NCBI GenBank assembly: GCA_964497435.1
Contig: CAZCCD010000001.1
Location: 29,914-61,913, forward strand
DNA: 32,000 nt
Source: Candidatus Woesearchaeota archaeon
Lineage (GTDB): Archaea; Nanobdellota; Nanobdellia; Pacearchaeales; GW2011-AR1
Reading direction: 5' to 3'
A program made the translations under genes and the position numbers. The notes beneath the pieces were generated by a model. The model did no database searches. It was not told where the DNA came from and saw only the letters and a program-made list of their open reading frames with translations. This document shows, one piece after another, positions 1-16,543 of this stretch; position 1 is the first letter of the stretch, and every line of letters starts with the position of its first letter.

Positions 1-609
1 ATAATTTCCTTCATAAATTGTTCTGTTTATTTTTCTTGAAACTAATCTGTTTGTTTCGACTATAAAAAATGGATCCTCAAATTCTTCGATAGGAACAAAG
101 GCATTTATTATTTGTTTTTTCTGCCATAATGCAAGATTCTGATTATCCCTCATGATAAAATCAGACACCATTGTGAACTTTACATGCCAGGGATCATCCT
201 GGCTGACATCAACTGTTGTGTTTTCTATTATTATATTTACATTAATTTTTGATGCCTTGCTGTTTATTGAGTCAATTATATCTTGATATGTTACTCCTAG
301 CATTATATCACTTGGAGCTCCATTAACTGTTCCATTAAAAAACGCCTCTTCAAAGAAAGCGTCAACATTACTTATATAAGATATATATGTTGCAGTGTAA
401 TTTTGAGCCTCGAAAATTGTCCTGTATCCTGATATGAAAAGCTGTCTCTCTAAATTCTCTTCAATAGAATGCAAAAAACTATCCATTGTCTCTACCCTTG
501 TTTTTACAGATTGTTTTTCCCTGAATATGGAAAATATTTCAAAAGAAAGAAATATTAATGCTATTAAAAGAATTGCTACAATTGTAAAAAATTGACCTCT
601 TTTGTTCAT
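1..609 (-). CDS. pilin-like protein with class III (archaeal type IV prepilin-like) signal peptide; partial, C-terminus beyond window edge
   Basis: Not in the ORF track because there is no stop in the window. Hand translation from ATG 609-607 stays open to base 1 (203 codons): MNKRGQFFTIVAILLIALIFLSFEIF... This is a short basic N-terminus, then G|Q, then ~20 hydrophobic residues. The ATG overlaps the TGA of the upstream gene (ATGA at 606-609), so the gene is operonic. Confidence 0.6.
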   Translation of the reverse strand, partial: MNKRGQFFTIVAILLIALIFLSFEIFSIFREKQSVKTRVETMDSFLHSIEENLERQLFISGYRTIFEAQNYTATYISYISNVDAFFEEAFFNGTVNGAPSDIMLGVTYQDIIDSINSKASKINVNIIIENTTVDVSQDDPWHVKFTMVSDFIMRDNQNLALWQKKQIINAFVPIEEFEDPFFIVETNRLVSRKINRTIYEGNY

Positions 610-1004
610 CTTAAATCCTTTACCAGATTTTTAACTTTATTTTTTATTTTATTTGATATGAATAATATTCTATTTTTATCTGCTTGATTTGCATCAGGTA
701 TTTTCCATTTTATTATTTTTTTTGTTTTGTTTTTAAACAATGAAGTAGGAATATCGTCTGCGACTATAATTATGGTATCCATATCTTTAACTAATCTTTC
801 ACTCAAACCTTTTGTTTTTTTGTTAATGTATATGCCTAATTTCTTCCCAACTGAAATAACATTGTTATGAACTGGAAATCCTTTAAACACTCCCGCACTA
901 TAAGCCCTAAATTTTTTATTCTTATTTATTTTATTAAAAAAAGCTTCAGCTATCTTGCTTCTGAATCTGTTGTGCTTGCAAACAAATAAAATTTTTTCAC
1001 TCAT
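606..1004 (-). CDS. low-molecular-weight protein-tyrosine phosphatase family protein (LMW-PTP/ArsC fold)
   Basis: 132 aa. The N-terminal P-loop VCKHNRFRS fits the C-X5-R-S signature. WKIPDA lies where the DP general-acid loop normally sits. There is a single Cys, so it looks PTP-like rather than a thioredoxin-coupled ArsC. Confidence 0.7.
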   Translation of the reverse strand: MSEKILFVCKHNRFRSKIAEAFFNKINKNKKFRAYSAGVFKGFPVHNNVISVGKKLGIYINKKTKGLSERLVKDMDTIIIVADDIPTSLFKNKTKKIIKWKIPDANQADKNRILFISNKIKNKVKNLVKDLR

Positions 1005-1031
1005 ATTTTATTCCTCATTTTGTTTTTTAAT

Positions 1032-1104
1032 TCGAATCAGTCAGAGGCAACGAAAAGATTCGGCGAGGTTGCTGGAGTTGTGAAGAACCCGCTGGAGGTT
1101 CTCA
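1032..1104 (-). repeat. hairpin-repeat element, copy A, abutting the stop codon of the 1017-aa gene
   Basis: Stem-loop agaacc-CGCTGGA-ggttct at 1084-1102 touches the stop codon at 1102-1104. It is preceded by GAGGTTGCTGGAGTTGTGA. A second stem pairs gcaac (1047-1051) with gttgc (1068-1072). The same module recurs at 4698-4735 and 16866-16903. Confidence 0.6.
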
Positions 1105-4100
1105 TCTCCATGCTCTTGCCTGCACCTCTGTATCCCATGTGAAAGGAATTCCTGTTATTTCTATAGTATTTATTGTTAAATCCTGGTCTGTGAATTTTGT
1201 CTCTATTTTTCCATTAAGATTTAAATCCAAACCTTTCAATAAATCATACGTTGATATTTGAATAGCATCATTATTATTGAAAAGTGCAAAACTCGGAATT
1301 GATGAGTTATAGTAACATCTATTACTCCCTGTGTAGTTTTTAGGCACTGAAATACTTCCAACAGTGTTATCTTCAAATTCTATATCCCACAAACATCCAT
1401 CTGCTGATATTACTACAGGAGTATATGATGATATATTTTTCACAATTGAGTAAACAACCTTGTCATAAATAGAACCGCCTGAAGAATTTGAAGGACCTGC
1501 TCCTGTAGAAACTATTACTGAATTGTCGCCTTTTTTTAATTTACTTCCTGGAATATTTACTATATAAGGGTCACCTAGCTCAAAATAACTGTTACTGTTA
1601 TATTCAGCGAGATTAAAAACATCTTCCCACACACCAGAACTGTTAATTTGGAGCATGTCTGTCCATCTTGGTCCAGAGTAAGAAACAACGCCTGCTTCAT
1701 AAGGCTCTGCATCAAGAGGAACGAAAAAGTTTCCTTGAGAGATATTGTTGTTGAATATCGCTGTTTCTGTTGTTATTGAAACTCCATTTGGAATGACTTT
1801 GTCATAATCCATCGATATATAAGAGTCAGAATAAAGCAATGTGTAGATTCCTTTTCCAATAACTGTCTGTTCAATGAACGCTGTACTGATAATATCTTGT
1901 GTTATCTGCTGATATATACTAACCAATTCCCCAACATTTCCAAAGTAAAAATTACCCTGGCCACATGATGATATGTCCTCTAGCGTATCTGTGTCTGCAC
2001 CATTTCCAAATCCAACAGCGTGGACAGTTATGTTGTGTTTATTTTTTGCATCGCATGCTGCTTGGATTGCATGATCTTGTGAATCATCGGTTGTATCCCC
2101 ATCTTGATCATAGTCAACAACAGGATCTAAACCACAAGCCCTGTTTGCCTGTCCGTCAGTCATTACAATAGCAACCCTGCTTCTATTTTCTGGAGGCAAG
2201 GCATTGCATATTTCATCAGTTAAAAATATACTGACATTACCTGCTGTATATCCAACGTTAGAATTCTCTGTTAAAAAAGACACTCTTGCTATATTTGTTC
2301 TTGTTGAATAAACAGAAAGATCATTTCCCTCTAAAACATCATCTACATATAAATCATAAACATTTGAGCCAGGAAAAATTTCAACTTTTATTTTATAATT
2401 TGTATTCAATGTATAAGAATATACTTGAGCATCATTATTCCTAATCCATCCATCATACATTTTAATTATTATATAATTTTGAAAATCACTAAATCCTGAA
2501 TTTGCTCCTTCTACATAAACTACAATTCTACCAGTTCCAGAATCATGCCTTACCAAAAATTCAACAGATATTTTATCTTCTTGTGGTGCAAAGTAATGTC
2601 TCATTACAGGATTTTGAGACGATAAACGGGAGATATTTACTGCCTTGTTTCCTTCTAATCCAGGAGAAATTATCCTTATTCTACCATTTCCTTCTGTAAC
2701 ACTCCATCTTGTTGGATTGCTTCCAATTGTTTGGTCATTAAAATTATCGTTAAATATATTTTTATCAAAACAATTTATTGCCTTAATTATTCCGCAGCAT
2801 ATACATGTATATCCTCCAGCATTCCAGGTATTGACTTCATTTATTAATGATGCACTATTATTAGATAATGCATGGAAATCACTTTTTTCAGCCCATGTCC
2901 TGTATCCTTCTAATCCAACATTATTTCCAGAAAAATTTAAAATTCCATTGATTAATTCTATATTAGCATTTTTTGCATCTGTTATTTTTTGTCCGCCCAT
3001 GCTTCCTGATAAATCAGTCACTGAAATCACATCGACTTTTATGTCTTTTCCAAGGCCAGAAACATTTTCTATGCCAAGTCTTATAGGAATATTTTTTTCA
3101 TTCATTGAAGAGTAATCTAAAATAGAAGATAATGTTGGATTATCTATTGTAACACTCAAATTAGCCCCAGAGCTGTTTCCAGAATAAATGCTTTTATTTC
3201 CTATTGTCATAAATATGTCAAAGCTGCTGTTGTAATGAAGGAAAACTTCCATAGAATTTAGTGTTCCAGGAACATAAATGCTATCATAAATATTTATCAG
3301 GCCTTTAATTCCTGGGAATTTTTTCTTGTAATATGAAGAAAGATTGCTGACATCATTGTAAACAGCTTTTAAATAACCTCCAGCTATATACAAATTCCCA
3401 TTTGTTGATTTAAACTCAACAGTGTTTTTACCTATGGCAAACATGCTTAAATTTGAATTTAAATCTATTTTATATGGAACATTTGATATTGGAGAATGAC
3501 TGCTTGCATATATATCATTTATATATAAATCAAAATCCCTTGAAAAAACTCCTTCTATATTCGCACTTATTACTTCTCCTTCAATTTCTGCAGTTATATT
3601 TCCATCTCCAATATAACCCCCAAAGTAAAAATACTCTATTTTATTTTCTGCGGTTAAGAAAGCCCTGGAAGAAAATCCTGTTGCAGAGCTCCCATTTATA
3701 ATCCCGCTTATTATTTGTCTTGATGTTAAAACTGTTAATGCATTACTAAAACTCGTATTTCCTGTTGAAGCTATTAATACATCATTGAAATAAAGCCCTG
3801 TGTTGTCTCTAAGAGCAAGGCTGTCTAAGATGTTTTGAGCGAGTTGATTTGCAAGAGGATTAGAGCTTGCATAAAACTCCCCTATCTGCTCAAGCACAGA
3901 CTGGTTTAATTTTTTTATATCTCCATTGGCTATTAACTGTTTAACGTAACTATTATTAATTTCCCCAATTTGTAAATCTGAAAGAACAGATAAGAGGTCT
4001 TCATGAACTCTTGAGTCATAGCTAACTTGAGTTTGACTTGGCTTAATAAAAAGAACAACCCCTATAATTAAGAGCAAGGCTATTAAAGCATCTAAACTAA

Positions 4101-4155
4101 AGAAATACCCTTTCTTATTTTTGGTTTTGAAGCTATTTTTATTTTTTATTCCCAT
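1102..4155 (-). CDS. large pilin-anchored vWA (MIDAS) domain protein with inserted LamG/concanavalin-like beta-sandwich; putative filament-associated adhesin (TadG/PilY1-like logic)
   Basis: 1017 aa. N-terminus ...NKKG|YFFSLDALIALLLIIGVVLFI is pilin-like. vWA elements: DVISVTDLSGSMGG (DxSxS), GGYTCICCGI (MIDAS Thr), VAIVMTDGQAN (MIDAS Asp) and ITVHAVGFG. A ~200-aa beta-rich insert (NPTRWSVTEGNGRIRII...GNVSIF) lies between the TCICCGI and MTDG segments. There is an acidic DYDQDGDTTDD loop. The start overlaps the upstream gene by 10 nt. Confidence 0.75.
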   Translation of the reverse strand: MGIKNKNSFKTKNKKGYFFSLDALIALLLIIGVVLFIKPSQTQVSYDSRVHEDLLSVLSDLQIGEINNSYVKQLIANGDIKKLNQSVLEQIGEFYASSNPLANQLAQNILDSLALRDNTGLYFNDVLIASTGNTSFSNALTVLTSRQIISGIINGSSATGFSSRAFLTAENKIEYFYFGGYIGDGNITAEIEGEVISANIEGVFSRDFDLYINDIYASSHSPISNVPYKIDLNSNLSMFAIGKNTVEFKSTNGNLYIAGGYLKAVYNDVSNLSSYYKKKFPGIKGLINIYDSIYVPGTLNSMEVFLHYNSSFDIFMTIGNKSIYSGNSSGANLSVTIDNPTLSSILDYSSMNEKNIPIRLGIENVSGLGKDIKVDVISVTDLSGSMGGQKITDAKNANIELINGILNFSGNNVGLEGYRTWAEKSDFHALSNNSASLINEVNTWNAGGYTCICCGIIKAINCFDKNIFNDNFNDQTIGSNPTRWSVTEGNGRIRIISPGLEGNKAVNISRLSSQNPVMRHYFAPQEDKISVEFLVRHDSGTGRIVVYVEGANSGFSDFQNYIIIKMYDGWIRNNDAQVYSYTLNTNYKIKVEIFPGSNVYDLYVDDVLEGNDLSVYSTRTNIARVSFLTENSNVGYTAGNVSIFLTDEICNALPPENRSRVAIVMTDGQANRACGLDPVVDYDQDGDTTDDSQDHAIQAACDAKNKHNITVHAVGFGNGADTDTLEDISSCGQGNFYFGNVGELVSIYQQITQDIISTAFIEQTVIGKGIYTLLYSDSYISMDYDKVIPNGVSITTETAIFNNNISQGNFFVPLDAEPYEAGVVSYSGPRWTDMLQINSSGVWEDVFNLAEYNSNSYFELGDPYIVNIPGSKLKKGDNSVIVSTGAGPSNSSGGSIYDKVVYSIVKNISSYTPVVISADGCLWDIEFEDNTVGSISVPKNYTGSNRCYYNSSIPSFALFNNNDAIQISTYDLLKGLDLNLNGKIETKFTDQDLTINTIEITGIPFTWDTEVQARAWR

Positions 4156-4613
4156 ATGTAAAAATCAAATCTTGATGGTTTATTTTTGTAGATTGTTATT
4201 CCTGTTACTTGTATTAAGTTTTCTGTATTGCTTGAATTAACCATTCCTACATAACTCGCTGGTAGGCCATTTATCTCTAAATTTTCCATGACAAAATAAA
4301 AATTTCTAGTAACTCCTATTATTGTTTTTTCTGCGTTATAATTTGCCTGAAAAAAATCAAGCTTTGATTGATTAACCCTTCCTTCTGTTAATATTCCTGC
4401 ATCTCCCTCACTCAATATCTGTTCTACAGCAACATTTCCCTCGTAAAATAATTCATCAAGATGTTTTTGTGATTGAGAAGAATAATTAATTGCATAAATA
4501 TAGAGAGTTATTATTCCTGCCATGAAGATAACCCCTGCTATTATAATATCAAGCCCCCATCCCTGCCCATTTTTGTCTTTTTTTATGTTACACATTTTTT
4601 TATTTTTATTCAT
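4146..4613 (-). CDS. pilin-like membrane-anchored protein (shortened start)
   Basis: The track ORF 4146..4793 is trimmed to the ATG at 4613-4611: MNKNKKMCNIKKDKNGQGWGLDIIIAGVIFMAGIITLYIY... This is a basic N-terminus, then G|Q, then a hydrophobic helix. The longer version would translate a non-coding tandem repeat and overlap the upstream gene by 62 nt. Confidence 0.55.
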   Translation of the reverse strand: MNKNKKMCNIKKDKNGQGWGLDIIIAGVIFMAGIITLYIYAINYSSQSQKHLDELFYEGNVAVEQILSEGDAGILTEGRVNQSKLDFFQANYNAEKTIIGVTRNFYFVMENLEINGLPASYVGMVNSSNTENLIQVTGITIYKNKPSRFDFYIWE

Positions 4614-4735
4614 GGTTGCTGGATGCATTAAAACTGGTAGAGGTTTCCTATCTCTGGTTGCTGGATGCATTAAAACTGGTAGAGGTTTCCTATCTCTGGT
4701 TGCTGGATGCATAGAAACCCGCTGGAGGTTTCTAT
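4614..4735 (-). repeat. tandem array of the hairpin-repeat element (two identical 42-bp units plus one variant unit), copies B1-B3
   Basis: Units at 4614-4655 and 4656-4697 are identical (ggttgctggatgcattaaaactggtagaggtttcctatctct). The third unit at 4698-4735 keeps ggttgctggatgcat and carries a perfect 9-bp stem, atagaaacc-CGCTGGA-ggtttctat (4711-4735). That stem contains the TAG stop (4732-4734) of the upstream pilin gene. Confidence 0.85.
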
Positions 4736-5145
4736 TGATTAAGGTAAACTGTGTCATTTTCTTTTTTGATTGAGTTTGAACCTTTCTGTACATTACCTAT
4801 AATTTCTGGAACCCTATAAGCCATGCCATGTCTATCTGTGGAAACATATACAAGGCCCGATGAAATTTCTATATTATAATCATTTCCAAGAACTTTTAAA
4901 GGAACTTGGAATATTCTATTATAGCCGTTTGTTGCTCCTGAAGCTAAGCCAAGTTCGCTTTGAACATCTAGTGCAATGTTTTGAAGCAATATTCTTTCTT
5001 TTTCCTTCTCTTTTTCTAATTGATTCTCTTTTATAATTACGAAAAATGTTACAAATGCAAATAAAACAAATCCAAATATTATCACAAATTCAATAGCACT
5101 CTGACCTCGTGAAGATCTTTGATCTGATCTTTTTATTTTAAGCAT
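4732..5145 (-). CDS. type IV pilin-like protein, class III signal peptide (first gene of the - strand operon; candidate major pilin)
   Basis: 137 aa. The N-terminus MLKIKRSDQRSSRG|QSAIEFVIIFGFVLFAFVTFFVII matches the archaeal QxSxEF-type prepilin N-terminus. Confidence 0.75.
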   Translation of the reverse strand: MLKIKRSDQRSSRGQSAIEFVIIFGFVLFAFVTFFVIIKENQLEKEKEKERILLQNIALDVQSELGLASGATNGYNRIFQVPLKVLGNDYNIEISSGLVYVSTDRHGMAYRVPEIIGNVQKGSNSIKKENDTVYLNQ

Positions 5146-5710
5146 TACACACCTCTAATTTTACATATTTACAGCATCCTTTTTATAAATTATTTACTAT
5201 TATGATTAAGTTAAAGTATCTATATAAAATTAAGCTTTCTGTGATACTGTTAAGTTATCAAGACATATCTCAAATTTGTGATTTTCTAAATTGCTGTTCA
5301 CTTTCGTTCACAGATTTAACATTTTAATAAATTCACGACGAGCAAATGCGAGGAGTGCAAATTTTACATATAAATAAAAAGCAATCCTTAAGATTATTTA
5401 AATTAAAAGAAGAATATCATTTTAGGTTGACAGTATAGCCTTCTGTTAAGCCCGTTATATATCATGAAATACTTCTTAGTTTATATATTGACTATTAATT
5501 AATATTAAAGGATAAATTTATTATGATGTGTTTAAACTCCCTGATTTATCATTAAAAAATTTGATATTTAACTGTTAACTCTAACTCATAATAAACATTT
5601 AAATAATGGATGACTAATTATAACCCTAGATTATACTCACTTATCATTAATATCTCTTTTATAAACTAAATTAAAATAAGGGGTTTGTTTTATGTTTTCA
5701 CAAGATTTTC

Positions 5711-5777
5711 GTAGGAGTAGAACACCCGAAGATGCCCTATCAAATCCTTAAGGATCTGAACGGAAACCGCCTCCTAC
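5711..5777 (-). ncRNA. candidate structured small RNA, four-helix (cloverleaf-shaped but not tRNA)
   Basis: Minus-strand fold: GUAGGAG-[GCGG UUU CCGU]-[UCAGAUCC UUAA GGAUUUGA]-UA-[GGGCAUC UUCG GGUGUUC]-UA-CUCCUAC. Five positions that are A-C mismatches on the + strand are G.U pairs on the - strand. It is a relatively G+C-rich island in a very AT-rich 885-bp gap. Confidence 0.45.
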
Positions 5778-5797
5778 AAAAAATACAATAAAATGAA

Positions 5798-5806
5798 TTT
5801 TTTAAA
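5798..5806 (-). promoter_or_regulatory. TATA-box-like element upstream of the candidate ncRNA
   Basis: Minus-sense TTTAAAAAA ends 20 nt upstream of the first base of the closing stem (5777). This is the usual archaeal TATA-to-start geometry. Confidence 0.35.
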
Positions 5807-6030
5807 CTTATCTCTATTCAAGATGAGATTTTTAAAAGATTTATTTAATCTATATATTATACTTTTTATCAAAAACAATACATATGAGATATCTCTCTAA
5901 TTCTATCTCTTACTTTAACAGTTACCCAAGCTTTGTTTAAACTGAATATAACATAAAATTTATCAACATTAAGTTATTTAGTTTTGTGTATTATCAACCT
6001 TATTTTAATATTCGCGAAAGCGACAATTTT

Positions 6031-9351: not shown

Positions 9352-11037
9352 TTATTCTTCTTCAAATTCCCAGGTTTCAAGCAACGGTCCTGCAACTTCT
9401 CTTCCTGATGAGAGTATCACTATAGGATAAATCTCGACCTTTATTATTGGTGCTACTAATCCAGATGTTGTTAAATCAAAATCATATTTAGTTACCTGCA
9501 ATATTTCAGGGGCTGGTTTGTCAACAACAGCTGTATTTGATGAAGAATCAAAGAATACAAATCTTAAAAAATTGTATTTTTGTATTGTTTTTGATTGCTG
9601 TATTGATTGGCCTGCTATTGTTGTGTAGATGTTTGTTAAATTATCTATGCTTCCATTAGATGCGTAATAAGTTCCATTTCCGCAGTTTGCGATGGCTTGT
9701 AGAGTCGCAGCATCAGCAGTAGGTTCAATACCAACACTATGGATTGTTAAATTCTGTATACTTGCATTACAAGCTGCATTAATGGCCTGTTGCGCAGGAG
9801 TTCCAGCCCCACCACAACCAAAATTTGCCAACCCATCACTCATAACAATCATTACTTTTTGTTTGTTTAACACTGAGTTATTTCCAAATTCAGCCGAGGC
9901 ATTGTTTATCCCACAACAAATGCAAGTTGCTCCCCAAGCCTCCCAACTATCTATTTTTGAGACTAGAATTCCAGAATTTGTAACTAAACCACTTGAATTA
10001 GAAGAATCTAAAGAACCCCTATATGCTGATAAACCAACTTTATTATTACTCCCAGTGAAAATTTCACTAACTAAGGCTTTATTTGCATTTATAAGAGGGT
10101 TAATTCTATCAATAAGATTCCCTCCACAGATAGGTTCACAATTGTTTAATGATGTTTTAGGTACTTCAGTACAATCGTAAGGAGGAGTAGTTGTTGCGTT
10201 GTTTAACTGGATTTCACTAATCCACATTATGTTTGGATAACTGGGAGGTCCCATTCCTGATTGTTGTACAAACCTTAAAGCTTGTGTTGAAAATTGTGGA
10301 AGAATGATTGTAGAATTTGATATGTTTTGAGCTCCGCCGCTGTTGAAAGTGACTAATGGCTGGAATACATATCCTGCATCTGCGTATTGAATCTCAACCT
10401 GTTGTGAAGTCATATATCTTGAAGTAGTTGCGTTCCAACCCCACCAAATTGTTATATTACTTACAGTTACTTGACCTACTATAAAGTCCATCGTAATCCT
10501 ATGGGGGAAAGGGCCTGTACTAGAACTTGCCCAGGAATTTGTCGTATTAATTATTCCGTCGACTAAATCACTTTCACTCCCAATGCTTGTGCTCCTAACA
10601 GTAACTTGTGCAAAAGGATCCATGCCTTCATTATACAAAAAAGCGCAACAATCTAAAGTTATATCTTCACAAACAGCCATGCTTCCGCTTAAATCCACAA
10701 CACTCATTACATCGACTTGAGGACTCTGGCCTTGTATCTCTATACTTCCTTCAGTTATTATTTTCCCTGTTTTCTTTTGGAGTGTTATGCTTAGACTTAG
10801 ATTATTGCTTTGGTTTATTTCGTCATCTATCACTTCAATGTTTTCACCTATTAAAGACGCTTTTATCGCCGATATTTCAGAATCCCTTTCTAAAATCAAT
10901 CTGACAATAATCCATATAATTGCAATTAAGACTATAGCAATTAAAATAATTAAAAGTGTTGTTATTATTGTTGAAAGGCCTTTTTTCTTTCTACAAATTG
11001 GAGAAACAACTAAACTAACACCTCTTTCTTTTTCCAT
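9352..11037 (-). CDS. pilin-anchored adhesin paralogue 2: vWA/MIDAS domain interrupted by a discoidin (F5/8 type C)-like domain
   Basis: 561 aa. N-terminus RKKKG|LSTIITTLLIILIAIVLIAIIW. MIDAS motif DVMSVVDLSGSM. Insert: HRITMDFIVGQVTVSNITIWWGWNATTSRYMTSQQVEIQY...ALRFVQQ...WISEIQL. Then ATCICCGINN, VMIVMSDGLAN, LTIHSVGIE. The C-terminus is identical to paralogue 1. Confidence 0.8.
   Translation of the reverse strand: MEKERGVSLVVSPICRKKKGLSTIITTLLIILIAIVLIAIIWIIVRLILERDSEISAIKASLIGENIEVIDDEINQSNNLSLSITLQKKTGKIITEGSIEIQGQSPQVDVMSVVDLSGSMAVCEDITLDCCAFLYNEGMDPFAQVTVRSTSIGSESDLVDGIINTTNSWASSSTGPFPHRITMDFIVGQVTVSNITIWWGWNATTSRYMTSQQVEIQYADAGYVFQPLVTFNSGGAQNISNSTIILPQFSTQALRFVQQSGMGPPSYPNIMWISEIQLNNATTTPPYDCTEVPKTSLNNCEPICGGNLIDRINPLINANKALVSEIFTGSNNKVGLSAYRGSLDSSNSSGLVTNSGILVSKIDSWEAWGATCICCGINNASAEFGNNSVLNKQKVMIVMSDGLANFGCGGAGTPAQQAINAACNASIQNLTIHSVGIEPTADAATLQAIANCGNGTYYASNGSIDNLTNIYTTIAGQSIQQSKTIQKYNFLRFVFFDSSSNTAVVDKPAPEILQVTKYDFDLTTSGLVAPIIKVEIYPIVILSSGREVAGPLLETWEFEEE
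9419..9576 (-). repeat. 158-bp block 100% identical to 6089-6246
   Basis: See 6089-6246. A second identical run of 39 bp (10690-10728 = 7549-7587) covers the MIDAS-encoding segment. Confidence 0.9.
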
Positions 11038-11058: not shown

Positions 11059-11078
11059 TTTAAATATCTTAGGTTAAA
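11059..11078 (-). promoter_or_regulatory. conserved promoter (TATA box) of adhesin paralogue 2
   Basis: Identical 20-mer to 7912-7931, at the same 22-nt distance from the ATG. Confidence 0.5.
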
Positions 11079-11431: not shown

Positions 11432-11926
11432 ATGGCAAAAAAAGTAGGTATAATTTTAATGGCTATTTTTGTAGTCTCTTTTTTAGGAATAAATTTGTAT
11501 AACTTTTTTTGGGATAGAGATTCAACCTCCCCAACAGGTTCTCTTATAACTGATTTACCTCTCGGCCTTAATATGAGTGTTCTTGCATTTGTTCTTCAAT
11601 GGGTCATACTTTTGGTTGTTGTTATATTTGCATACACGAGATTTTTGAAGCATAGAAAAGAAGAAGACGCAAAGATTGCAGGGCTAGTCCTTCCTAAACT
11701 CACATCAAAATCTCAAACTTATATGGATGTTTTTTACAATCTTCTTAAAGAAAAGAAAAGTTTAAGCATTAGGTCTGTATCCATACTTTTTAATATTAAG
11801 AAAGACAAAGCAATGGAATGGGCAAAAATATTAGAAGACCATGATCTTGTAATAATCGAATATCCTGCTTTCAGTGACCCAGAAGTTAAAATAAAAGAAG
11901 GGAAAATGGAACTTGACATGATTTAA
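11432..11926 (+). CDS. small membrane protein with possible C-terminal winged-helix-like domain; first gene of the filament machinery operon
   Basis: 164 aa. Two predicted TM helices (IILMAIFVVSFLGINLY; VLAFVLQWVILLVVVIFAY). The soluble C-terminal ~70 aa (SIRSVSILFNIKKDKAMEWAKILEDHDLVIIEY) is helix-turn-helix-like by pattern only. Confidence 0.5.
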   Translation: MAKKVGIILMAIFVVSFLGINLYNFFWDRDSTSPTGSLITDLPLGLNMSVLAFVLQWVILLVVVIFAYTRFLKHRKEEDAKIAGLVLPKLTSKSQTYMDVFYNLLKEKKSLSIRSVSILFNIKKDKAMEWAKILEDHDLVIIEYPAFSDPEVKIKEGKMELDMI

Positions 11927-11992
11927 ATTAAAAAGAAAATGATAAAAAATAAAAAACAAATAAATATTAAACTGTTAAATAAAAACTGAAAA

Positions 11993-13966
11993 ATGCTTTT
12001 GAAAAAAAAGAGTGATTATGTTAGAGATTGGGTAAAGAGGGCTATTGAAAAAGGATATCATTTTAAAGATTTACGAAGAGTCCTAACTAAAAGCGGATTT
12101 AACCACAGACAGATTTTGGCTATTCTTTCAATTTATGAAAAAGTTAAGAAAGATCCACATTTTATAATCACTCAAAAAAACATCCCTCTTACAATAAAAA
12201 AAATGCCTTCTTTAGTTTTAAAGCCTTTAGTTACTAAAGAAGATTTACAAAAACAATTCTTGCCTCCTCCTCCACCAAAAAAAACCATTTTTGAAAAAGA
12301 AGAAAGACAGGAACAAAAGAAAGATGATAAAAATATTTTTGAAAATGAACAAAAAAATAAGATATTTCCTTCTCTAAAATTAAGTGAAAAACCTCCTTCG
12401 TCCAGGCTTGACCGAAGTGAAGAAAAAAGCTTAGAACCCATTAAATTAGCTCCTGTATTAATCAAGCCTAAGCCTAAAGGAAAAGTCATAGATGAATATG
12501 AATTAGAAATTGACAAGGCAAAGGTCACGATATCTATTGAAAAAGTAACAGAAGGCCTAATCTATAATGTTTATTTTCCAGAAATAGATATTGCTACAAA
12601 AGCTTTGCTTGAAGAAATAAGAAAAGAATTAATAGCTGTCACAACGCTTGCGATAGGAGAGATAGTTGATCAGAAATCTGTCCAGAATGTAAAAGAAAGA
12701 TTCATGAGAGAGGCTAATACTTTATTGAGAGATAAAGTTCCAGGAATATCAAAAGATACAGAGGATTTTCTTGTAGGAATTTTAATGCAAGAAATGCTTG
12801 GACTCGGCAAGATAGAATTTTTGATTAATGACCCGAATTTGGAGGAAATTGTAATTGTTAGCAGTATTGAAGTAAGAGTTTACCATAAAAAATACGGTTG
12901 GCTTCTTACTAATATAACTCTAAGGTCAGAAGATGAAGTTACCAACTATGCAAATATAATAGCAAGAAGAGTTGGAAGACAAATAAGCATTTTAAACCCT
13001 TTACTTGATGCGCATGTAGTTACTGGAGACAGGGCTAACGCGGTTCTCTATCCTGTAGCTACTAAAGGAAATACAATAACAATTAGAAAATTCTCAAGAG
13101 ACCCCTGGACAATAATAGATCTTATTAACAATAATACAATGAGTAAGGAAATTGCTTCAATATTATGGCTTGCAATGGAGTATGAGATGAATGTCATATT
13201 TTCAGGAGGCACGGCATCTGGAAAAACAGTCTGTTTGAATGCATGTATGCCTTTTATCCCCCCAAATCATAGAGTCATAAGTATGGAAGATACAAGAGAG
13301 TTAATGCTTCCAACATTTCTTTACTGGTGCCCTTTAGTGACAAGGACATCAAATGTCGAGGGAAAAGGAGAGGTTTCTATGCTTGACCTCCTTGTAAATT
13401 CACTTAGAATGAGGCCTGATAGAATAATACTTGGAGAGATAAGAAGACAGAGAGAGGCAGAAGTTTTATTTGAGGCTATGCATACAGGACACTCTGTTTA
13501 TTCTACAGTTCATGCAGACACAGCCAACGAAACAATCAGAAGGCTGACAAATCCTCCAATAAACATCCCCCCTTCAATGCTTTATAGCGTCAATCTTAAT
13601 CTTGTCATGTTTAGAGACAGGAAAAAAGGAGTAAGAAGAGCTTTCCAGCTTGCAGAATTTATTCCTGGCAAAGAATCATTGACTGCTAATTTGCTTTATA
13701 GATGGATTCCTGACAGAGATCAGTTTGTAGCTCATAACAGGAGTCTTTCTTTTTTTGAAACACTAAGCAGAAATACTGGAATGGACGAGAAAGAAATAAA
13801 TTCTGAGATAAACAACAAAAAAGATATTTTTGATTGGCTCATAAAAAACAAAATAAGAGACCTCGAGTCTTTTGGAAAATTAACAAATCTTTATTATACT
13901 GACAGAGAAAGAATGTATTCAATTATAAAAAATAATAAAGTTTCAGAGATTTTAGAGAAAAAATAA
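11993..13966 (+). CDS. type IV filament/secretion ATPase, TadA/FlaI/VirB11 (T2SSE) family, with long Lys/Pro-rich N-terminal extension
   Basis: 657 aa. Walker A FSGGTASGKT, Walker B-like RPDRIILGEIR, His-box TGHSVYSTVHA. The first ~190 aa are low-complexity (PPPPPKK, KPKPKGK). Confidence 0.85.
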   Translation: MLLKKKSDYVRDWVKRAIEKGYHFKDLRRVLTKSGFNHRQILAILSIYEKVKKDPHFIITQKNIPLTIKKMPSLVLKPLVTKEDLQKQFLPPPPPKKTIFEKEERQEQKKDDKNIFENEQKNKIFPSLKLSEKPPSSRLDRSEEKSLEPIKLAPVLIKPKPKGKVIDEYELEIDKAKVTISIEKVTEGLIYNVYFPEIDIATKALLEEIRKELIAVTTLAIGEIVDQKSVQNVKERFMREANTLLRDKVPGISKDTEDFLVGILMQEMLGLGKIEFLINDPNLEEIVIVSSIEVRVYHKKYGWLLTNITLRSEDEVTNYANIIARRVGRQISILNPLLDAHVVTGDRANAVLYPVATKGNTITIRKFSRDPWTIIDLINNNTMSKEIASILWLAMEYEMNVIFSGGTASGKTVCLNACMPFIPPNHRVISMEDTRELMLPTFLYWCPLVTRTSNVEGKGEVSMLDLLVNSLRMRPDRIILGEIRRQREAEVLFEAMHTGHSVYSTVHADTANETIRRLTNPPINIPPSMLYSVNLNLVMFRDRKKGVRRAFQLAEFIPGKESLTANLLYRWIPDRDQFVAHNRSLSFFETLSRNTGMDEKEINSEINNKKDIFDWLIKNKIRDLESFGKLTNLYYTDRERMYSIIKNNKVSEILEKK

Positions 13967-14854
13967 GTGTTCAAAATGAAATTTAGAATTCCCTTCACTT
14001 TTTCTGATATAGAGATTCTTAAGAGAAAGAGCAAGCCTTTTATAAAATTCACCAAACCAAAAAAATCTAGACTCGATGATTATCTTTTAAGCTCTGGAGA
14101 AAATATTTACAGGAGGCAATATTTAGCCATATGTTATAGGTCTTTTTTAGTTAATATACTCGTTTTTTCTGTTTTGTTCACCTCTATACTTGGAGTTTTT
14201 AGGGCAAGTCTTTTTTATTTTTATGGATTAGGATCAGCCATAATGATTTCTGGATTAATATTTTTAAATCAGCTTAATTATCCAAGAATCTTCTCCTTGA
14301 ATAAAGAAAGAAATATAGAAAGCAACCTTATTTCGGTTCTTCAAGATATGATTGTTCAGTTAAATTCAGGAATACCGATGTTTAAAATAATAGTGAATAT
14401 TTCTGAATCTAAATATGGAGAGGTTAGCAACGAATTCAGAAAAATTACAAAAGAAATAAATTCAGGTATTTCTCAGATAGAAGCAATAGAAAAAGCAGGA
14501 AAAATTAATACTTCGACTTATTTTAAAAGAGTGCTGTGGCAGATTAGTAATGGAATGAGATCAGGCGCTGATATGACTAATATTATAGAAGAAGGTATAA
14601 GAAATTTAACTGACGAGCAAGAAATTCAAATTCAAAACTATGGTGGTAAACTTAATCCATTAATAATGTTTTACATGTTGATGGCAGTTATATTGCCTTC
14701 TTTAGGTATAACCTTCCTTATAATTGTGTCTTCTTTAATGAACCTCCCTAGTATTTTGACGCAGTTGGTTTTCTTCGGAATTTTTGGGGTTGTAATATTT
14801 ATGCAGATTATGTTTCTTGGCTTAATTAAATCAAGGAGGCCTAGCCTACTATGA
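13967..14854 (+). CDS. TadB/TadC-like (T2SSF/FlaJ-family) platform membrane protein, half 1
   Basis: 295 aa. It starts directly after the ATPase stop (GTG at 13967; alternative ATG at 13976). It has TM helices at both ends flanking a soluble helical domain. The family call rests on size, topology and position, which are typical of single-domain TadB/TadC proteins. Confidence 0.65.
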   Translation: MFKMKFRIPFTFSDIEILKRKSKPFIKFTKPKKSRLDDYLLSSGENIYRRQYLAICYRSFLVNILVFSVLFTSILGVFRASLFYFYGLGSAIMISGLIFLNQLNYPRIFSLNKERNIESNLISVLQDMIVQLNSGIPMFKIIVNISESKYGEVSNEFRKITKEINSGISQIEAIEKAGKINTSTYFKRVLWQISNGMRSGADMTNIIEEGIRNLTDEQEIQIQNYGGKLNPLIMFYMLMAVILPSLGITFLIIVSSLMNLPSILTQLVFFGIFGVVIFMQIMFLGLIKSRRPSLL

Positions 14855-15813
14855 ACACACTTAATTTTTATCCTGAAAAAATGAGGAAGCAATACATAAA
14901 AAATATTAGGAATGCTGGCATAAAACATACGCCTGAAAAATATCATAATTTTGTTTTTTGGCTAAGTGTTATAATCACCTTAGTCGTTTCTCCTTTTTTT
15001 TATCTTTTCAATGTTCAGATTTATTTTTCAATACTGGTATTTCTCTTTTTTATAATATTTTTTTACATTCAAACAAGCCTTAAAGCTATGAATAGAATAA
15101 AAAAAATGGAAAATGTTTTCCCAGACGTTATTTCTTTAATGGCTAGCAATCTGAGATCAGGCATAACAATAGACAAGGCTTTTTTACTCGCTGCAAGGCC
15201 CGAATTTTACCCTCTCGATCAGGAAATTCTGAAGACTGGGAGAGATATTACAACAGGACAGGATATTGTTTTTGCCTTAAAATCTATGAGTGATAGGGTT
15301 GACTCAGAGAAAATAGAGAAAGTTATCATGCTTATAATTTCAGGATTAAGAGCAGGAGGAAATATTTCTGATTTGCTTGAGCAAACCGCCAATAATATGA
15401 AGAAAAAAGAGCTTCTTGAAAAAAAATCAAGGTCAACCATACTCATGTATGTAATTTTCATATTTTTTGCCGTGGCGCTTGGAGCACCTGTTCTTTTTGG
15501 ATTAAGCTCTGTCCTTGTAGAAATCATAATAGAGCTTACTTCAAGACTTCCTGAAGTAGGAACAATACCAACTGACCTGCCATTCACTTTTAACGAAGTC
15601 TCAATCTCCTTAAATTTTGTAATTTACTTTTCAATAATTTTTATGGTAATATCAAGCTTTATTTCTTCGATGGTTGTGGGACTCGTAAGAAAAGGGGATT
15701 CAAAATCCGGGTTAAAATACTTTTTGCCCATAGTTTCAATTAGCCTTGTCATTTATTTTATAGTTAGGAAAATCTTGGCAGGCATTTTGCTTGATCTTAT
15801 CTCAAATGTTTAG
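14851..15813 (+). CDS. TadB/TadC-like (T2SSF/FlaJ-family) platform membrane protein, half 2
   Basis: 320 aa. Its ATG overlaps the previous stop (ATGA). The topology matches the preceding gene (N-terminal TM pair, soluble helical domain, C-terminal TM cluster). Confidence 0.65.
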   Translation: MNTLNFYPEKMRKQYIKNIRNAGIKHTPEKYHNFVFWLSVIITLVVSPFFYLFNVQIYFSILVFLFFIIFFYIQTSLKAMNRIKKMENVFPDVISLMASNLRSGITIDKAFLLAARPEFYPLDQEILKTGRDITTGQDIVFALKSMSDRVDSEKIEKVIMLIISGLRAGGNISDLLEQTANNMKKKELLEKKSRSTILMYVIFIFFAVALGAPVLFGLSSVLVEIIIELTSRLPEVGTIPTDLPFTFNEVSISLNFVIYFSIIFMVISSFISSMVVGLVRKGDSKSGLKYFLPIVSISLVIYFIVRKILAGILLDLISNV

Positions 15814-15847
15814 AAATATTTAAAAGAGAGATTAAATTTAATTTACT

Positions 15848-16543
15848 ATGGCAGAAAAAAGAGTCGCATCTGGAATTCCTGGATTTGACAGACTAATTGG
15901 AGGTGGTTTTAATGCCAACTCAATTAACATAATTTCAGGAGGAAGTGGAAGCGGAAAAACAATTTTCTCATTACAGTTTTTACTTGAGGGTTTAAAAAAA
16001 GGAGAAAAAGTTCTTTATGTTACATTTGAAGAGAAAAAAGAAGATGTTTACGACAATGTTAAAAAATTTGGCTGGAATTTAGAAAAGGCGGAGGCAACAG
16101 GAAAATTTATCTTTCTTGAGTACTCTCCAGAGAAAGTTAAGATGATGTTGGACGAAGGAGGAGGAGCAATAGAATCAACTGTCTTAAAAAATCAGATTTC
16201 TAGGCTTGTTATAGACAGTGTCACAAGTTTTACCTTACTTTTTGATGATGAGCAATCTAGAAGACAGGCAGTTCTTGGCCTGGTTGATATTATAAGAAAG
16301 TGGAATTGTACAACCTTACTTACTGTGCAACATGATCCTCTTGAAAAGAGCAGTGAAGGCCTATCTTTTATAGAATTCGAAGTTGATGGAATAATTCTTC
16401 TTTATTATCCTAGCACAGGAGGAAGGAGAAGAAGATATCTTGAAGTCTTGAAGATGAGAGGCACAGAACATTCTAAAGACATGCATGTTTTTAAAATTGA
16501 CAGGGGAATTAAAGTCGGTCCTGTTACTTCAATTAGGAGATGA
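15848..16543 (+). CDS. KaiC-like/RecA-superfamily ATPase (FlaH-like accessory ATPase)
   Basis: 231 aa. SGIPGFDRLIGGG, then Walker A GGSGSGKT and Walker B RLVIDS. It is the last gene of the machinery operon. Confidence 0.8.
   Translation: MAEKRVASGIPGFDRLIGGGFNANSINIISGGSGSGKTIFSLQFLLEGLKKGEKVLYVTFEEKKEDVYDNVKKFGWNLEKAEATGKFIFLEYSPEKVKMMLDEGGGAIESTVLKNQISRLVIDSVTSFTLLFDDEQSRRQAVLGLVDIIRKWNCTTLLTVQHDPLEKSSEGLSFIEFEVDGIILLYYPSTGGRRRRYLEVLKMRGTEHSKDMHVFKIDRGIKVGPVTSIRR

What the first reader, a model, noticed from the sequence alone, without database searches (positions are those of the whole stretch)
1..16543. Tad/Epd-like archaeal type IV filament locus built around three pilin-anchored vWA adhesins
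Seen in sequence:
- The + strand operon 11432-16543 encodes a T2SSE-type ATPase (Walker A GGTASGKT, His box), two separate single-domain platform proteins and a KaiC-like ATPase.
- It faces - strand genes for five short proteins with class III signal-peptide-like N-termini (RG|QSAIEF, KA|QIGTEY, RG|QFFTI, NG|QGWGLD, KKG|YFFS).
- It also faces three large proteins (1017, 619 and 561 aa) whose pilin-type N-terminus (KKG|LSTIITTLL..., KKG|YFFSLDALIA...) is fused to a full MIDAS vWA domain.

Established knowledge: bacterial Tad loci combine TadA, split TadB/TadC, TadE/F pseudopilins and a vWA-containing TadG. T4P tip proteins such as PilY1 also carry vWA-like modules. Bacterial Tad systems have been argued to descend from archaeal Epd-like pili. 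As far as I know, none of the experimentally characterised archaeal pili has a vWA tip adhesin.

Inference: this is an adhesion filament whose minor or tip pilins are lectin-vWA adhesins. In a small-genome archaeon it is a plausible host- or cell-attachment apparatus, and a possible archaeal counterpart of the TadG arrangement. No prepilin peptidase is present in the window.
Basis: partly seen in the sequence, partly recalled or inferred. Interest (0 to 1): 0.8.

Follow-up and report, generated by a model that had tools for sequence, protein, structure and literature searches.

The report
Archaeal pilus locus with vWA adhesins
This is a type IV pilus gene cluster of a small-genome (DPANN-type) archaeon whose pilin-like genes include three large proteins carrying von Willebrand A and lectin domains. 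One of the three is a conserved core part of the same cluster in dozens of related archaea, which makes it a concrete candidate for the attachment device of these host-dependent cells.

Summary
Window 1-16543 encodes a secretion-type ATPase, two one-domain platform proteins and a KaiC-like ATPase on the + strand. These face seven - strand genes with class III (prepilin-like) N-termini, three of which carry a vWA domain with a MIDAS motif (Ser for Thr in the 619-aa copy) and a lectin-type insert. No prepilin peptidase is in the window.

The machinery matches the published Epd-like/Tad-like layout, so it is a known kind.

New here:
- The 1017-aa vWA protein belongs to a large DPANN family that sits in a conserved cluster. 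The cluster holds a membrane protein, the ATPase, two platform genes, KaiC, four smaller pilin-like genes and the vWA giant. 39 of 45 related genome loci with enough flank carry the machinery.
- The 619- and 561-aa proteins belong to a different family, archaeal modular pilins with the same vWA subtype. Elsewhere these genes stand alone. Here two recent paralogues are inserted into the cluster.
- The likely major pilin lies just beyond the window's left edge.

Best reading: an adhesion filament whose priming or tip complex carries vWA-lectin adhesins, analogous to bacterial TadG/CpaL, PilB and PilY1. Cleavage, filament assembly, tip location and ligand are all inferred.

Verdict: new variant of a known kind, moderate to good interest.

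The parts
1..609 (-). g01: pilin-like protein (MNKRG|QFFTIVAILL...), 5' two thirds only. The gene runs off the left edge of the window. Its family is about 310 aa and has no Pfam match.
   Evidence: Translation. Orthologue directly downstream of the vWA giant in 61 of 69 related loci. N-terminal logo KK[GA]|[IQM]FFT. No Pfam family.
606..1004 (-). Low-molecular-weight phosphotyrosine phosphatase, a variable passenger between g03 and g01.
   Evidence: PF01451 at 1.9e-15. Found at this position in only 3 of 73 related loci.
1102..4155 (-). g03: 1017-aa pilin-like giant. Class III-type N-terminus (KKG|YFFSLDALIAL), a helical plus beta N-domain, a vWA domain with full MIDAS (D381, S383, S385, T450, D667) split by a sialidase-CBM/ConA-like lectin insert (about 485-645), and C-terminal beta domains. 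It is the conserved core adhesin candidate.
   Evidence: AlphaFold model with pLDDT 89.7. Foldseek hits to ITIH1, Mfa5 and PilB vWA domains and to sialidase lectin domains. Synteny.
4146..4613 (-). g04: pilin-like protein of about 150 aa (…KDKNG|QGWGLDIIIAGV). The start is probably at 4613 or 4595. It overlaps g03 by 10 nt.
   Evidence: Q+1, W+3 and D+6 invariant in 53 of 53 orthologues. Start options. Present in 51 of 67 loci. Weak DUF7287 and Pilin_N hits in a few members.
4613..4712 (.). Perfect 42-bp x 2.4 tandem repeat in the g05-g04 spacer. A degenerate third copy extends to 4738.
4732..5145 (-). g05: 137-aa pilin-like protein (SRG|QSAIEF), a minor-pilin candidate.
   Evidence: Q+1 and E+5 in 50 of 52 orthologues. 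Family members hit DUF7266 (30 of 42) and Class_IIIsignal PF04021 (13 of 42). Homologous to g08 over its full length (hhalign probability 96%).
5146..6030 (.). AT-rich non-coding stretch of 885 bp with a GC island (5711-5777, - strand) that folds into a closed three-hairpin structure. It is specific to this genome.
   Evidence: No protein, DNA, Rfam or tRNA match.
6031..7890 (-). g06: 619-aa modular pilin. Archaeal pilin signal (NKKG|LSTIITTLL), a 43-residue alpha-1 helix, then a vWA domain with an F5/8-type-C (discoidin) insert right after DxSxS, and a conserved C-terminal beta domain.
   Evidence: TIGR02537 at 1.9e-5, above its cut-off. Model with pLDDT 78. Foldseek vWA hits including S. sanguinis PilB and neuropilin b1b2. 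Family data.
7971..8627 (+). g07: 218-aa membrane-anchored Gly-rich and Cys-rich protein. It is a recurrent neighbour of unknown role and has no class III signal.
   Evidence: Homologue in 18 related loci, several at the same position between g08 and g05.
8902..9321 (-). g08: 139-aa pilin-like protein (KKA|QIGTEY).
   Evidence: Q+1 and E+5 invariant, Y+6 in 47 of 49. PF04021 hit in 16 of 42 family members. N-terminus homologous to that of the putative major pilin (hhalign probability 96.8%).
9352..11037 (-). g09: 561-aa modular pilin, a paralogue of g06 (48% identity overall; C-terminal 93 aa nearly identical).
11432..11926 (+). g10: 164-aa membrane protein, first gene of the machinery operon.
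   Evidence: Conserved upstream of the ATPase in 37 of 45 loci. No Pfam family.
11993..13966 (+). Assembly ATPase (T2SSE/VirB11 superfamily) with an N-terminal Lys/Pro-rich extension of about 220 aa.
   Evidence: Closest solved relatives are A. fulgidus GspE 2OAP (237 bits), FlaI (193 bits) and CpaF (160 bits).
13967..14854 (+). Platform protein a (one T2SSF domain; TadB/TadC-like).
14851..15813 (+). Platform protein b (one T2SSF domain).
15848..16543 (+). Single-domain KaiC-like ATPase, the secondary ATPase of the system.
   Evidence: PF06745 at 8.8e-60. KaiC_arch_3 scores 160 bits against 62 bits for ArlH. KaiC is the best solved relative at 218 bits. Present in 38 of 45 loci.

Best explanation
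Proposed mechanism.
- The locus encodes an Epd-like archaeal type IV filament of a DPANN-type archaeon.
- The ATPase, the two half-size platform proteins, a small membrane protein and a KaiC-like secondary ATPase form the membrane motor.
- A co-conserved set of pilin-like proteins (g08, g05, g04, g01) together with the 1017-aa pilin-like vWA-lectin protein g03 would form the priming complex. That complex starts filament assembly and ends up at the tip.
- A highly conserved pilin of about 125 residues, encoded just past the window's left edge in related genomes, would build the shaft.
- The MIDAS site of g03 and its swappable lectin insert would bind a ligand on another cell or surface.
- g06 and g09 are modular pilins of a second family. 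They have an archaellin/PilA-type signal and the same vWA subtype, here with a discoidin insert. They would be alternative adhesive subunits, recently duplicated and inserted into the cluster.

Shown: gene content, domain content, predicted folds, conserved N-terminal motifs, and synteny across DPANN.

Inferred: signal cleavage by a peptidase encoded elsewhere, assembly into a filament, tip position, the adhesin role, and the nature of the ligand.
For: Machinery. It matches the Epd/Tad layout described in PMC6668835 and 'System 1 ... in DPANN' in the preprint 10.64898/2026.04.22.720090.

Class III-type N-termini conserved over about 50 orthologues per family. PF04021 hits in family members. 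g06/g09 hit TIGR02537 and Pilin_N, and 65 of 84 family members carry K[RK]G|[LIV]S.

Synteny: of 45 genome loci with at least 9 kb upstream of a g03 homologue, 39 carry the ATPase and both platform genes and 38 carry KaiC. g01 follows g03 in 61 of 69 loci. Four metagenome loci show the same arrangement.

A pilin with a nearly invariant N-terminus, KKG|QAAMEFLMTYGWAIL, follows g01 in about 45 loci.

Structure: the g03 model has pLDDT 89.7 and shows vWA plus a lectin jellyroll. The g06 model has a 43-residue alpha-1 helix and a vWA domain. MIDAS check.

The vWA modules of the two families are close relatives (hhalign E = 4.6e-62).

Bacterial precedents for pilin-vWA tip subunits: PilB and CpaL/TadG.
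Against: - No prepilin peptidase in the window or among conserved neighbours.
- Only 3 of the 7 N-termini fit the strict FlaFind core pattern at the expected site.
- In the g03 model the N-terminal helix is only about 20 residues and is followed by a helical bundle, not a canonical pilin head.
- The candidate major pilin has an Ig-like head, unlike the very short Epd and Flp pilins.
- The KaiC-like protein is much closer to KaiC than to ArlH/FlaH.
- g06-type genes are not linked to the machinery elsewhere.
- There are no expression, microscopy or binding data.
Confidence: 0.65

Rival explanations
1. Surface-display (bindosome-like or pseudopilus-like) system. The machinery assembles only a short membrane-proximal stalk. 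The class III signals serve to anchor and present the vWA-lectin proteins on the cell surface rather than at the tip of a long filament.
For: Archaeal class III signals are used for non-filament surface proteins. The 2026 preprint proposes SPIII-bearing binding proteins that 'functionalise' TFF machineries. The ATPase also scores on the bindosome BasE model (152 bits). Three large ligand-binding SPIII proteins sit in one locus.
Against: The BasE score is far below its cut-off and below the FlaI score. A small pilin with an almost invariant N-terminus, typical of a polymerising major subunit, is part of the conserved cluster. No substrate-binding-protein domains were found.
Confidence: 0.15
2. 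g03 is mainly an assembly, anchoring or mechanosensing component rather than the ligand-binding adhesin. Precedents are the old proposal that TadG anchors the pilus and the plug and surface-sensor roles of PilY1 and CpaL.
For: TadG was hypothesised to anchor the pilus (quoted in PMC4858521). CpaL affects pilus number and surface sensing. g03 is as strictly conserved in the cluster as the motor genes. Its N- and C-terminal domains are highly conserved.
Against: The variable, swappable lectin-type insert fits ligand diversification. Family members carry no insert, a sialidase-CBM-like domain, LamG, or Cys-rich repeats. The MIDAS residues are invariant. The assembly and adhesin roles are not mutually exclusive.
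Confidence: 0.12
3. The vWA proteins are ordinary N-terminally anchored membrane proteins (uncleaved signal anchors) that merely neighbour a pilus operon.
For: No cleavage prediction tool could be run. g03 fails the strict FlaFind pattern at the expected site. g06-type genes occur away from pilus genes.
Against: A conserved [KR][GA] followed by a hydrophobic stretch in every family. g06 passes NCBI's archaellin/pilin N-terminal model above its cut-off. g03 is embedded between pilin-like genes with overlapping reading frames in about 60 genomes.
Confidence: 0.05
4. A reduced archaellum (motility) locus.
For: The best NCBIfam hit of the ATPase is the FlaI model (292 bits). A KaiC/ArlH-like ATPase is present.
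Against: The FlaI score is far below its 550-bit cut-off. The platform is split into two genes. No archaellin (PF01917) and no ArlF, G, C, D, E or X were found. The KaiC-like protein scores only 62 bits on ArlH against a cut-off of 215.
Confidence: 0.02

Closest known systems
Epd (EppA-dependent) pilus of Methanococcus maripaludis; 'Epd-like' clade of Denise et al. 2019; 'System 1' / Clade 1 of Makarova et al. 2016 and Sivabalasarma & Albers 2026
   Same: - Two contiguous one-domain platform genes, the ATPase, and a secondary FlaH/KaiC-type ATPase.
- Several minor pilin-like genes in the locus.
- Pilins with Q at +1 (Class_IIIsignal motif).
- Large adhesin-like SPIII proteins, including one with a galactose-binding domain in M. 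maripaludis.
- The system is reported to occur in DPANN.
   Different: - The large pilin-like protein here carries a vWA/MIDAS domain. That is not mentioned for archaeal TFF loci in any of the three surveys.
- The candidate major pilin has an Ig-like head rather than being a roughly 70-aa helix-only pilin.
- The secondary ATPase is KaiC-like rather than ArlH-like.
- The gene order differs.
- EppA was not seen.
- ATPase clade membership was not tested.
Bacterial Tad pilus minor-pilin set: TadE/TadF (CpaJ/CpaK) plus TadG/CpaL
   Same: - Split platform (TadB/TadC) and a related ATPase (CpaF, 160 bits).
- G|xxxxEY-type pilin N-termini.
- CpaL is a pilin-like module fused to a MIDAS vWA domain interrupted by a beta-rich insert, and is predicted to sit at the tip with two minor pilins. 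g06 and g09 have the same plan, and g03 has a larger version of it.
   Different: - No secretin and no TadZ in the window. A MinD-like gene occurs in the flanks of 14 related loci.
- No Pfam Tad or TadE match, apart from one weak TadE hit among 42 members.
- The N-termini are archaeal in type.
- g03 is roughly 60% longer than CpaL (626 residues in the domain map) and has extra N- and C-terminal domains.
- Whether the vWA-pilin fusions are homologous or convergent was not tested.
Modular type IV pilin PilB of Streptococcus sanguinis (PDB 7B7P)
   Same: A class III signal, a small pilin module and a bulky vWA module with MIDAS. PilB appears among the Foldseek hits of both models and in the profile search. 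Its direct adhesin role is shown experimentally.
   Different: PilB is bacterial, with an N-methylation-type prepilin motif and no lectin insert. The published survey of modular pilins searched a bacterial prepilin signature and does not mention archaea.
PilY1 plus the minor pilins FimU-PilVWX of Pseudomonas and Myxococcus type IVa pili
   Same: About four minor pilins plus one large vWA-containing protein are encoded together. They prime assembly and are carried to the tip (as summarised).
   Different: PilY1 is not itself a pilin and has a C-terminal beta-propeller. The system is diderm-specific and has a secretin.

Membership tests
Epd-like / System 1 archaeal type IV filament | Two contiguous platform genes, each with a single T2SSF domain | tested here: met
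   13967-14854 and 14851-15813 each have one PF00482 domain. Feature definition from PMC6668835.
Epd-like / System 1 archaeal type IV filament | Secretion-type assembly ATPase adjacent to the platform genes | tested here: met
   T2SSE at 6.9e-34 with all four nucleotide-binding boxes.
Epd-like / System 1 archaeal type IV filament | Secondary FlaH-type (RecA/KaiC-like) ATPase next to the main ATPase and platform genes | tested here: met
   KaiC PF06745 at 8.8e-60, in 38 of 45 related loci. It is closer to KaiC than to ArlH.
Epd-like / System 1 archaeal type IV filament | Pilins with Gln at +1 (Class_IIIsignal / DUF361 motif) | tested here: met
   Q+1 and E+5 invariant in the g08 and g05 families. 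PF04021 hit in 16 of 42 and 13 of 42 family members. The window copies themselves score below threshold.
Epd-like / System 1 archaeal type IV filament | Dedicated EppA-type (9-TM) prepilin peptidase | not testable with these tools
   None in the window and none among conserved neighbours within 10 kb. The rest of the genome is not available.
Epd-like / System 1 archaeal type IV filament | ATPase and platform genes branch within the Epd-like/Tad clade | not tested
   No reference Epd sequences were available. The solved relatives only show A. fulgidus GspE > FlaI > CpaF. The 2026 preprint also notes subsystem 4A loci with two platform genes in DPANN, so 4A is not excluded.
Epd-like / System 1 archaeal type IV filament | Very short major pilin lacking a globular head | tested here: inconclusive
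   The candidate major pilin in related loci is about 125 aa when mature and has an Ig-like domain. Its gene lies outside the window, and a short stand-alone pilin elsewhere cannot be excluded.
Modular type IV pilin (pilin module plus grafted functional module) | Class III signal peptide and N-terminal pilin helix followed by an unrelated functional domain | tested here: met
   g06: TIGR02537 at 1.9e-5 (above cut-off), Pilin_N at 4.3e-4, predicted helix 18-60, then the vWA domain. Family: 65 of 84 with K[RK]G|[LIV]S and 82 of 84 with DxSxS. Cleavage itself is not testable here.
vWA domain with MIDAS | Rossmann-like vWA fold with the DxSxS...T...D metal site | tested here: met
   Pfam hits, Foldseek hits, and motif positions. 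g06 has Ser in place of the Thr.
Bacterial Tad pilus | Secretin RcpA/CpaC, TadZ/CpaE, Flp pilin, TadE/F/G Pfam signatures (PF07811, PF13400) | tested here: not met
   No such hits in the window. One weak TadE hit among 42 g05 homologues. The organism is archaeal (thermosome at 20833-22431).
Archaellum | Archaellins (PF01917), ArlF/G, ArlC/D/E or ArlX, a single two-domain ArlJ, and ArlH | tested here: not met
   None found. FlaI and ArlH models score far below their cut-offs.
Bindosome (Bas) system | BasE/BasF plus substrate-binding proteins with class III signals | tested here: not met
   BasE scores 152 bits against a cut-off of 1000. No substrate-binding-protein domains.

The most novel reading that the evidence does not exclude
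The pilin-vWA tip subunit known from bacterial Tad pili (TadG/CpaL) is not a bacterial invention. It was already part of the archaeal Epd-like ancestor and was transferred to Bacteria together with TadA/B/C. In DPANN archaea it survives as the conserved g03 protein, whose exchangeable lectin cassette sets host or partner specificity, making it the long-sought recognition device of these episymbionts.
Probability: 0.2. Interest if true: 0.8.

Novelty: new variant of a known kind. Interest (0 to 1): 0.58.

Why it matters
How DPANN archaea recognise and hold on to their hosts is an open question. Pili-like appendages reaching into host cells have been imaged (PMC7906910), but without genes attached to them.

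This work defines a conserved gene set spread over Woese-, Pace-, Nano-, Aenigmat-, Micr- and Nanohalo-archaeotal genome bins, about ten genes in its full form. Its only obviously ligand-binding component is a pilin-like protein carrying a MIDAS vWA domain and an exchangeable lectin module. That gives a specific, testable candidate for the attachment apparatus.

It also extends two ideas to Archaea:
- the 'modular pilin' concept, so far surveyed only for bacteria;
- a pilin-vWA subunit like TadG/CpaL inside an archaeal system of the kind from which Tad pili are thought to derive. This bears on what was transferred from Archaea to Bacteria.

Tried and rejected
- Rfam (gathering scores on the whole window; E-value mode on 5100-6080) and ARAGORN found nothing.
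- The 885-bp non-coding stretch has no protein or DNA homologue in 80 related loci. Its structured element has no exact match in viral contigs.
- The look-up of encoding contigs had no record for the window's own 619-aa protein.
- The first word-indexed search found only 7 relatives of g06. The exhaustive profile search showed the family is much larger (265 clusters below 1e-30).
- The strict FlaFind core pattern fits only g05, g06 and g09 at the expected site, so I relied on orthologue conservation instead.
- No Pfam or NCBIfam family exists for g01, g10 or the candidate major pilin.
- hhalign between g01 and g03 shows only N-terminal similarity (probability 29%).
- Archaellum, bindosome and Tad membership were considered and rejected (see the membership test).
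- A phylogenetic placement of the ATPase could not be done because no reference Epd sequences were available.

Full report
**What is in the window.**

On the + strand, five genes form a tight operon with gaps of 66, 0, -4 and 34 nt:
- a 164-aa membrane protein at 11432-11926;
- an ATPase at 11993-13966 (T2SSE 6.9e-34; Walker A GGTASGKT, Asp box, Walker B and His box all present);
- two platform proteins at 13967-14854 and 14851-15813, each with one T2SSF domain;
- a single-domain KaiC-like ATPase at 15848-16543 (PF06745 8.8e-60).

On the - strand lie seven genes whose products begin with a short basic leader, then Gly or Ala, then a hydrophobic stretch:
- g09 (561 aa), g08 (139 aa), g06 (619 aa) and g05 (137 aa);
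- g04 (about 150 aa; the true start is most likely 4613 or 4595);
- g03 (1017 aa);
- g01 (at least 203 aa, cut by the window edge).

A low-molecular-weight tyrosine phosphatase gene (606-1004) and a + strand gene for a Gly/Cys-rich membrane protein (7971-8627) are interspersed. The organism is archaeal (thermosome at 20833-22431) with about 31% GC. Its closest protein relatives come from Pacearchaeota and Woesearchaeota genome bins. No ORF in the 32 kb hits a prepilin peptidase family.

**The three vWA proteins are real but belong to two families.**

*g03.* It hits PF00092 above Pfam's cut-off. Across 120 homologues, the MIDAS residues D381, S383, S385 and D667 are invariant and T450 is nearly so. 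An AlphaFold model built on that alignment is confident (mean pLDDT 89.7). It shows:
- an N-terminal hydrophobic helix (17-36) and a helical subdomain (50-113);
- a beta-rich domain (118-362);
- a vWA domain in two pieces (374-470 and 659-761) interrupted by a jellyroll (485-645);
- C-terminal beta domains (772-1016).

Foldseek against the PDB returns vWA domains of adhesive proteins: ITIH1, the type V pilus tip protein Mfa5 and the S. sanguinis minor pilin PilB. It also returns sialidase carbohydrate-binding and ConA-like lectin domains. Within the family the insert is absent, sialidase-CBM-like (as here), LamG, or Cys-rich repeats. The flanking domains stay conserved.

*g06 and g09.* These are 48% identical paralogues.
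- g06 passes NCBI's archaellin/type IV pilin N-terminal model above its cut-off (TIGR02537 1.9e-5) and hits Pilin_N, a galactose-binding F5/8-type-C domain and VWA.
- Its model (pLDDT 78) has a continuous 43-residue helix (18-60) typical of pilin alpha-1. Short beta strands follow, then the first vWA strand with DxSxS, a lower-confidence discoidin insert, the rest of the vWA fold and a C-terminal beta domain. Foldseek again finds vWA domains including PilB, and neuropilin b1b2 for the insert.
- An exhaustive profile search finds 265 sequence clusters below 1e-30, and roughly 100 of the best 150 listed hits are full-length proteins of 350-650 aa.
- Of 84 members, 78 hit VWA, 82 have DxSxS and 65 carry K[RK]G|[LIV]S followed by about 20 hydrophobic residues. 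The only N-terminal signatures found are archaeal ones: Pilin_N, one archaellin and DUF7289. No bacterial signatures appear.

The vWA modules of the two families are close relatives that share the TCICCGI, VMSDG, AIxAAC and CGxGxYY signatures (hhalign E = 4.6e-62). The same vWA subtype therefore sits on two different pilin-type N-termini, with inserts at different positions.

**The smaller pilin-like proteins.** I extracted orthologues from 73 related genome loci and built N-terminal logos.
- g08: K[KR][GAS]|Q[IVA][SG]xEY, with Q+1 and E+5 invariant.
- g05: KK[GSA]|QxAIEF, with Q+1 and E+5 in 50 of 52.
- g04: K[KR][AG]|QAWGxD, with Q+1, W+3 and D+6 invariant.
- g01: KK[GA]|[IQM]FFT.
- g03: [KR][GA]|[YVI]FFSxDA.

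Members of the g08 and g05 families hit Pfam Class_IIIsignal PF04021 (16 and 13 of 42). The g05 family also hits DUF7266 (30 of 42). g08 and g05 are homologous over their whole length. Only g05, g06 and g09 fit the strict FlaFind core pattern at the expected site. The case for the others rests on conservation and context.

**Synteny.** Scanning one genome per species with the g03 family gave 73 loci. They come from Woese-, Pace-, Nano-, Aenigmat-, Micr- and Nanohalo-archaeotal bins. tblastn with all window proteins gave these counts:
- Of 45 loci with at least 9 kb upstream of g03, 39 contain the ATPase and both platform genes, 38 KaiC, 37 the small membrane protein, 39 g08 and 40 g05.
- g04 precedes g03 in 51 of 67 loci.
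- g01 follows g03 in 61 of 69 loci.

Two layouts occur. In 22 loci the arrangement is divergent, as in the window. In 14 it is co-directional, with g08 and g05 flipped. Four more metagenome loci show the same picture.

Clustering all flank ORFs revealed one further conserved member. It is a pilin of about 150 aa with an almost invariant N-terminus (KKG|QAAMEFLMTYGWAILAAII) and an Ig-like head. It is present in about 45 loci and in most of them lies downstream of g01. Its N-terminus is homologous to that of g08. It is the obvious major-pilin candidate. In this genome it would lie just beyond coordinate 1. No curated family covers it. A MinD/FleN-like ATPase recurs in 14 flanks, and no peptidase does.

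The g06-type genes behave differently. In every recovered context they are solitary, next to RNase HII, SMC, tRNA synthetase or similar genes. Contigs reached 54 kb, with 1-10 kb of flank recovered on each side, and none held a pilus gene. In the window, g09 and g06 flank g07 and lie between g08 and g05, together with an 885-bp non-coding stretch. In other genomes g08 and g05 are adjacent or separated only by g07. The 3' 279 nt of g06 and g09 are 89% identical while the middle has diverged. This points to recent duplication or gene conversion.

**Comparison with what is known.**
- *Denise et al. 2019* define Epd-like and Tad systems by two contiguous one-domain platform genes followed by the ATPase and a secondary ATPase (TadZ in Tad, FlaH in Epd). 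They argue that Tad derives from an archaeal Epd-like system.
- *Makarova et al. 2016* note two tadC genes in Clade 1 and many Clade 2 loci, KaiC-family ATPases linked to type IV pilus loci, and large PilY-like (DUF2341) adhesins in Clade 1. They mention vWA only for cytoplasmic ArnB-type regulators, and TadG only as a bacterial case.
- *The 2026 preprint of Sivabalasarma and Albers* reports System 1 loci in DPANN, some DPANN 4A loci with two platform genes and a PilY-like adhesin, and adhesin-like proteins in many subsystems. It does not mention vWA, MIDAS or lectins.
- *The survey of modular pilins by Raynaud et al. 2021* used a bacterial prepilin signature and does not mention archaea.
- *Caulobacter CpaL*, the TadG orthologue, is described as a pilin module plus a MIDAS vWA domain split by a beta-rich insert, predicted to sit at the tip with CpaJ and CpaK. 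This is the architecture of g06 and g09.
- Full-text searches combining DPANN, pili or pilin and vWA or von Willebrand returned nothing relevant.

The machinery is thus a known kind. A conserved pilin-like vWA-lectin component of a DPANN-wide cluster, and an archaeal family of vWA modular pilins, appear to be undescribed in the literature I could search.

**Mechanism and rivals.** The most economical reading has four parts:
- A class III peptidase encoded elsewhere trims the seven precursors.
- g08, g05, g04, g01 and g03 form the priming complex on the ATPase-platform motor.
- The QAAMEF pilin polymerises beneath them and carries the vWA-lectin head of g03 outward.
- g06 and g09 are alternative adhesive subunits.

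None of these steps is shown. Points that fit less well:
- the g03 model lacks a long alpha-1 helix;
- the candidate major pilin is not of the short Epd/Flp type;
- the KaiC-like protein is nearer KaiC than ArlH;
- ATPase clade membership is untested, so 'System 1' versus '4A with split platform' stays open.

The rivals are:
- a short surface-display stalk (bindosome-like);
- a mainly structural or sensing role for g03;
- mere adjacency of ordinary membrane proteins (unlikely, given overlapping reading frames and conservation in about 60 genomes);
- an archaellum (excluded by gene content).

**Verdict.** It needs correction on 'three adhesins at the core': one is core and two are accessory insertions. 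It remains untested on function. I rate this a new variant of a known kind, with moderate to good interest, because it gives a specific candidate for DPANN attachment and bears on the archaeal origin of the Tad minor-pilin set.

Noticed in passing
window 5706-5782 (- strand), core 5711-5777: A GC island (45% against about 20% around it) inside the 885-bp non-coding stretch folds into a closed three-hairpin, cloverleaf-like structure. MFE is -36.7 kcal/mol, z = -5.65, and 0 of 200 shuffles fold as well. It is not a tRNA by ARAGORN. It has no Rfam match, no match in the 80 related loci then held and no exact match in viral contigs. It is a candidate small structured RNA of unknown kind.
   Followed up: partly
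window 4613-4712 (degenerate third copy to 4738): A perfect 42-bp x 2.4 tandem repeat lies directly upstream of the likely g04 start. Each unit carries an in-frame ATG (MHPATRDRKPLPVL), which makes the mechanical ORF 215 aa long.
   Followed up: partly
window 6031-6310 and 9352-9640: The 3' ends of g06 and g09 are 89% identical over 279 nt, giving nearly identical C-terminal 93 residues, and the 5' roughly 330 nt are 77% identical. The lectin and vWA middle has diverged. This is the pattern of recent duplication or gene conversion of the anchoring modules.
   Followed up: partly
related loci, e.g. L079:15185-15646, L024:8228-8668, L048:13426-13905: A pilin of about 150 aa with a nearly invariant N-terminus (KKG|QAAMEFLMTYGWAILAAII) and an Ig-like head is present in about 45 related loci, in most of them downstream of the g01 homologue, sometimes in two copies. 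It is the likely major pilin. In this genome it would lie just left of the window. No Pfam or NCBIfam family covers it.
   Followed up: yes
window 606-1004: A low-molecular-weight phosphotyrosine phosphatase gene is wedged between g03 and g01, overlapping g01 by 4 nt. It is found at that position in only 3 of 73 related loci (L015, L023, L027). A link to the autophosphorylating KaiC-like ATPase is conceivable but untested.
   Followed up: no
related loci, e.g. L032:170-925: A MinD/FleN-type ATPase recurs in the flanks of 14 related loci. This is the family that Makarova 2016 and Denise 2019 link to Clade 1 and TadZ. It is not present in the window.
   Followed up: no
window 11993-12650: The ATPase carries an N-terminal extension of about 220 residues, rich in Lys and Pro (657 aa against a family median of about 572 aa). 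The 2026 preprint argues that variable ATPase N-domains track subsystem identity.
   Followed up: no
window 19095-20483, 26482-27867, 28180-29025: Three further probable surface proteins lie outside the locus. One has Big_9, cadherin-like and Big_13 domains and a C-terminal membrane anchor. The other two have signal-peptide-like N-termini and a hydrophobic segment further on, near the C-terminus in one. They may belong to the same cell-surface repertoire.
   Followed up: no
L037 (MNXB01000016.1): A contig labelled 'Elusimicrobia bacterium' carries the archaeal g04-g03-g01 cluster and is nearly identical in layout to a Pacearchaeota contig (L038). It is probably a mis-binned contig.
   Followed up: no
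window 30582-31037: A 151-aa ORF has a retroviral-type aspartyl protease domain (PF13975 5.1e-6, just below its cut-off). It follows an 81-aa ORF and may be a small toxin-antitoxin-like or mobile-element remnant.
   Followed up: no
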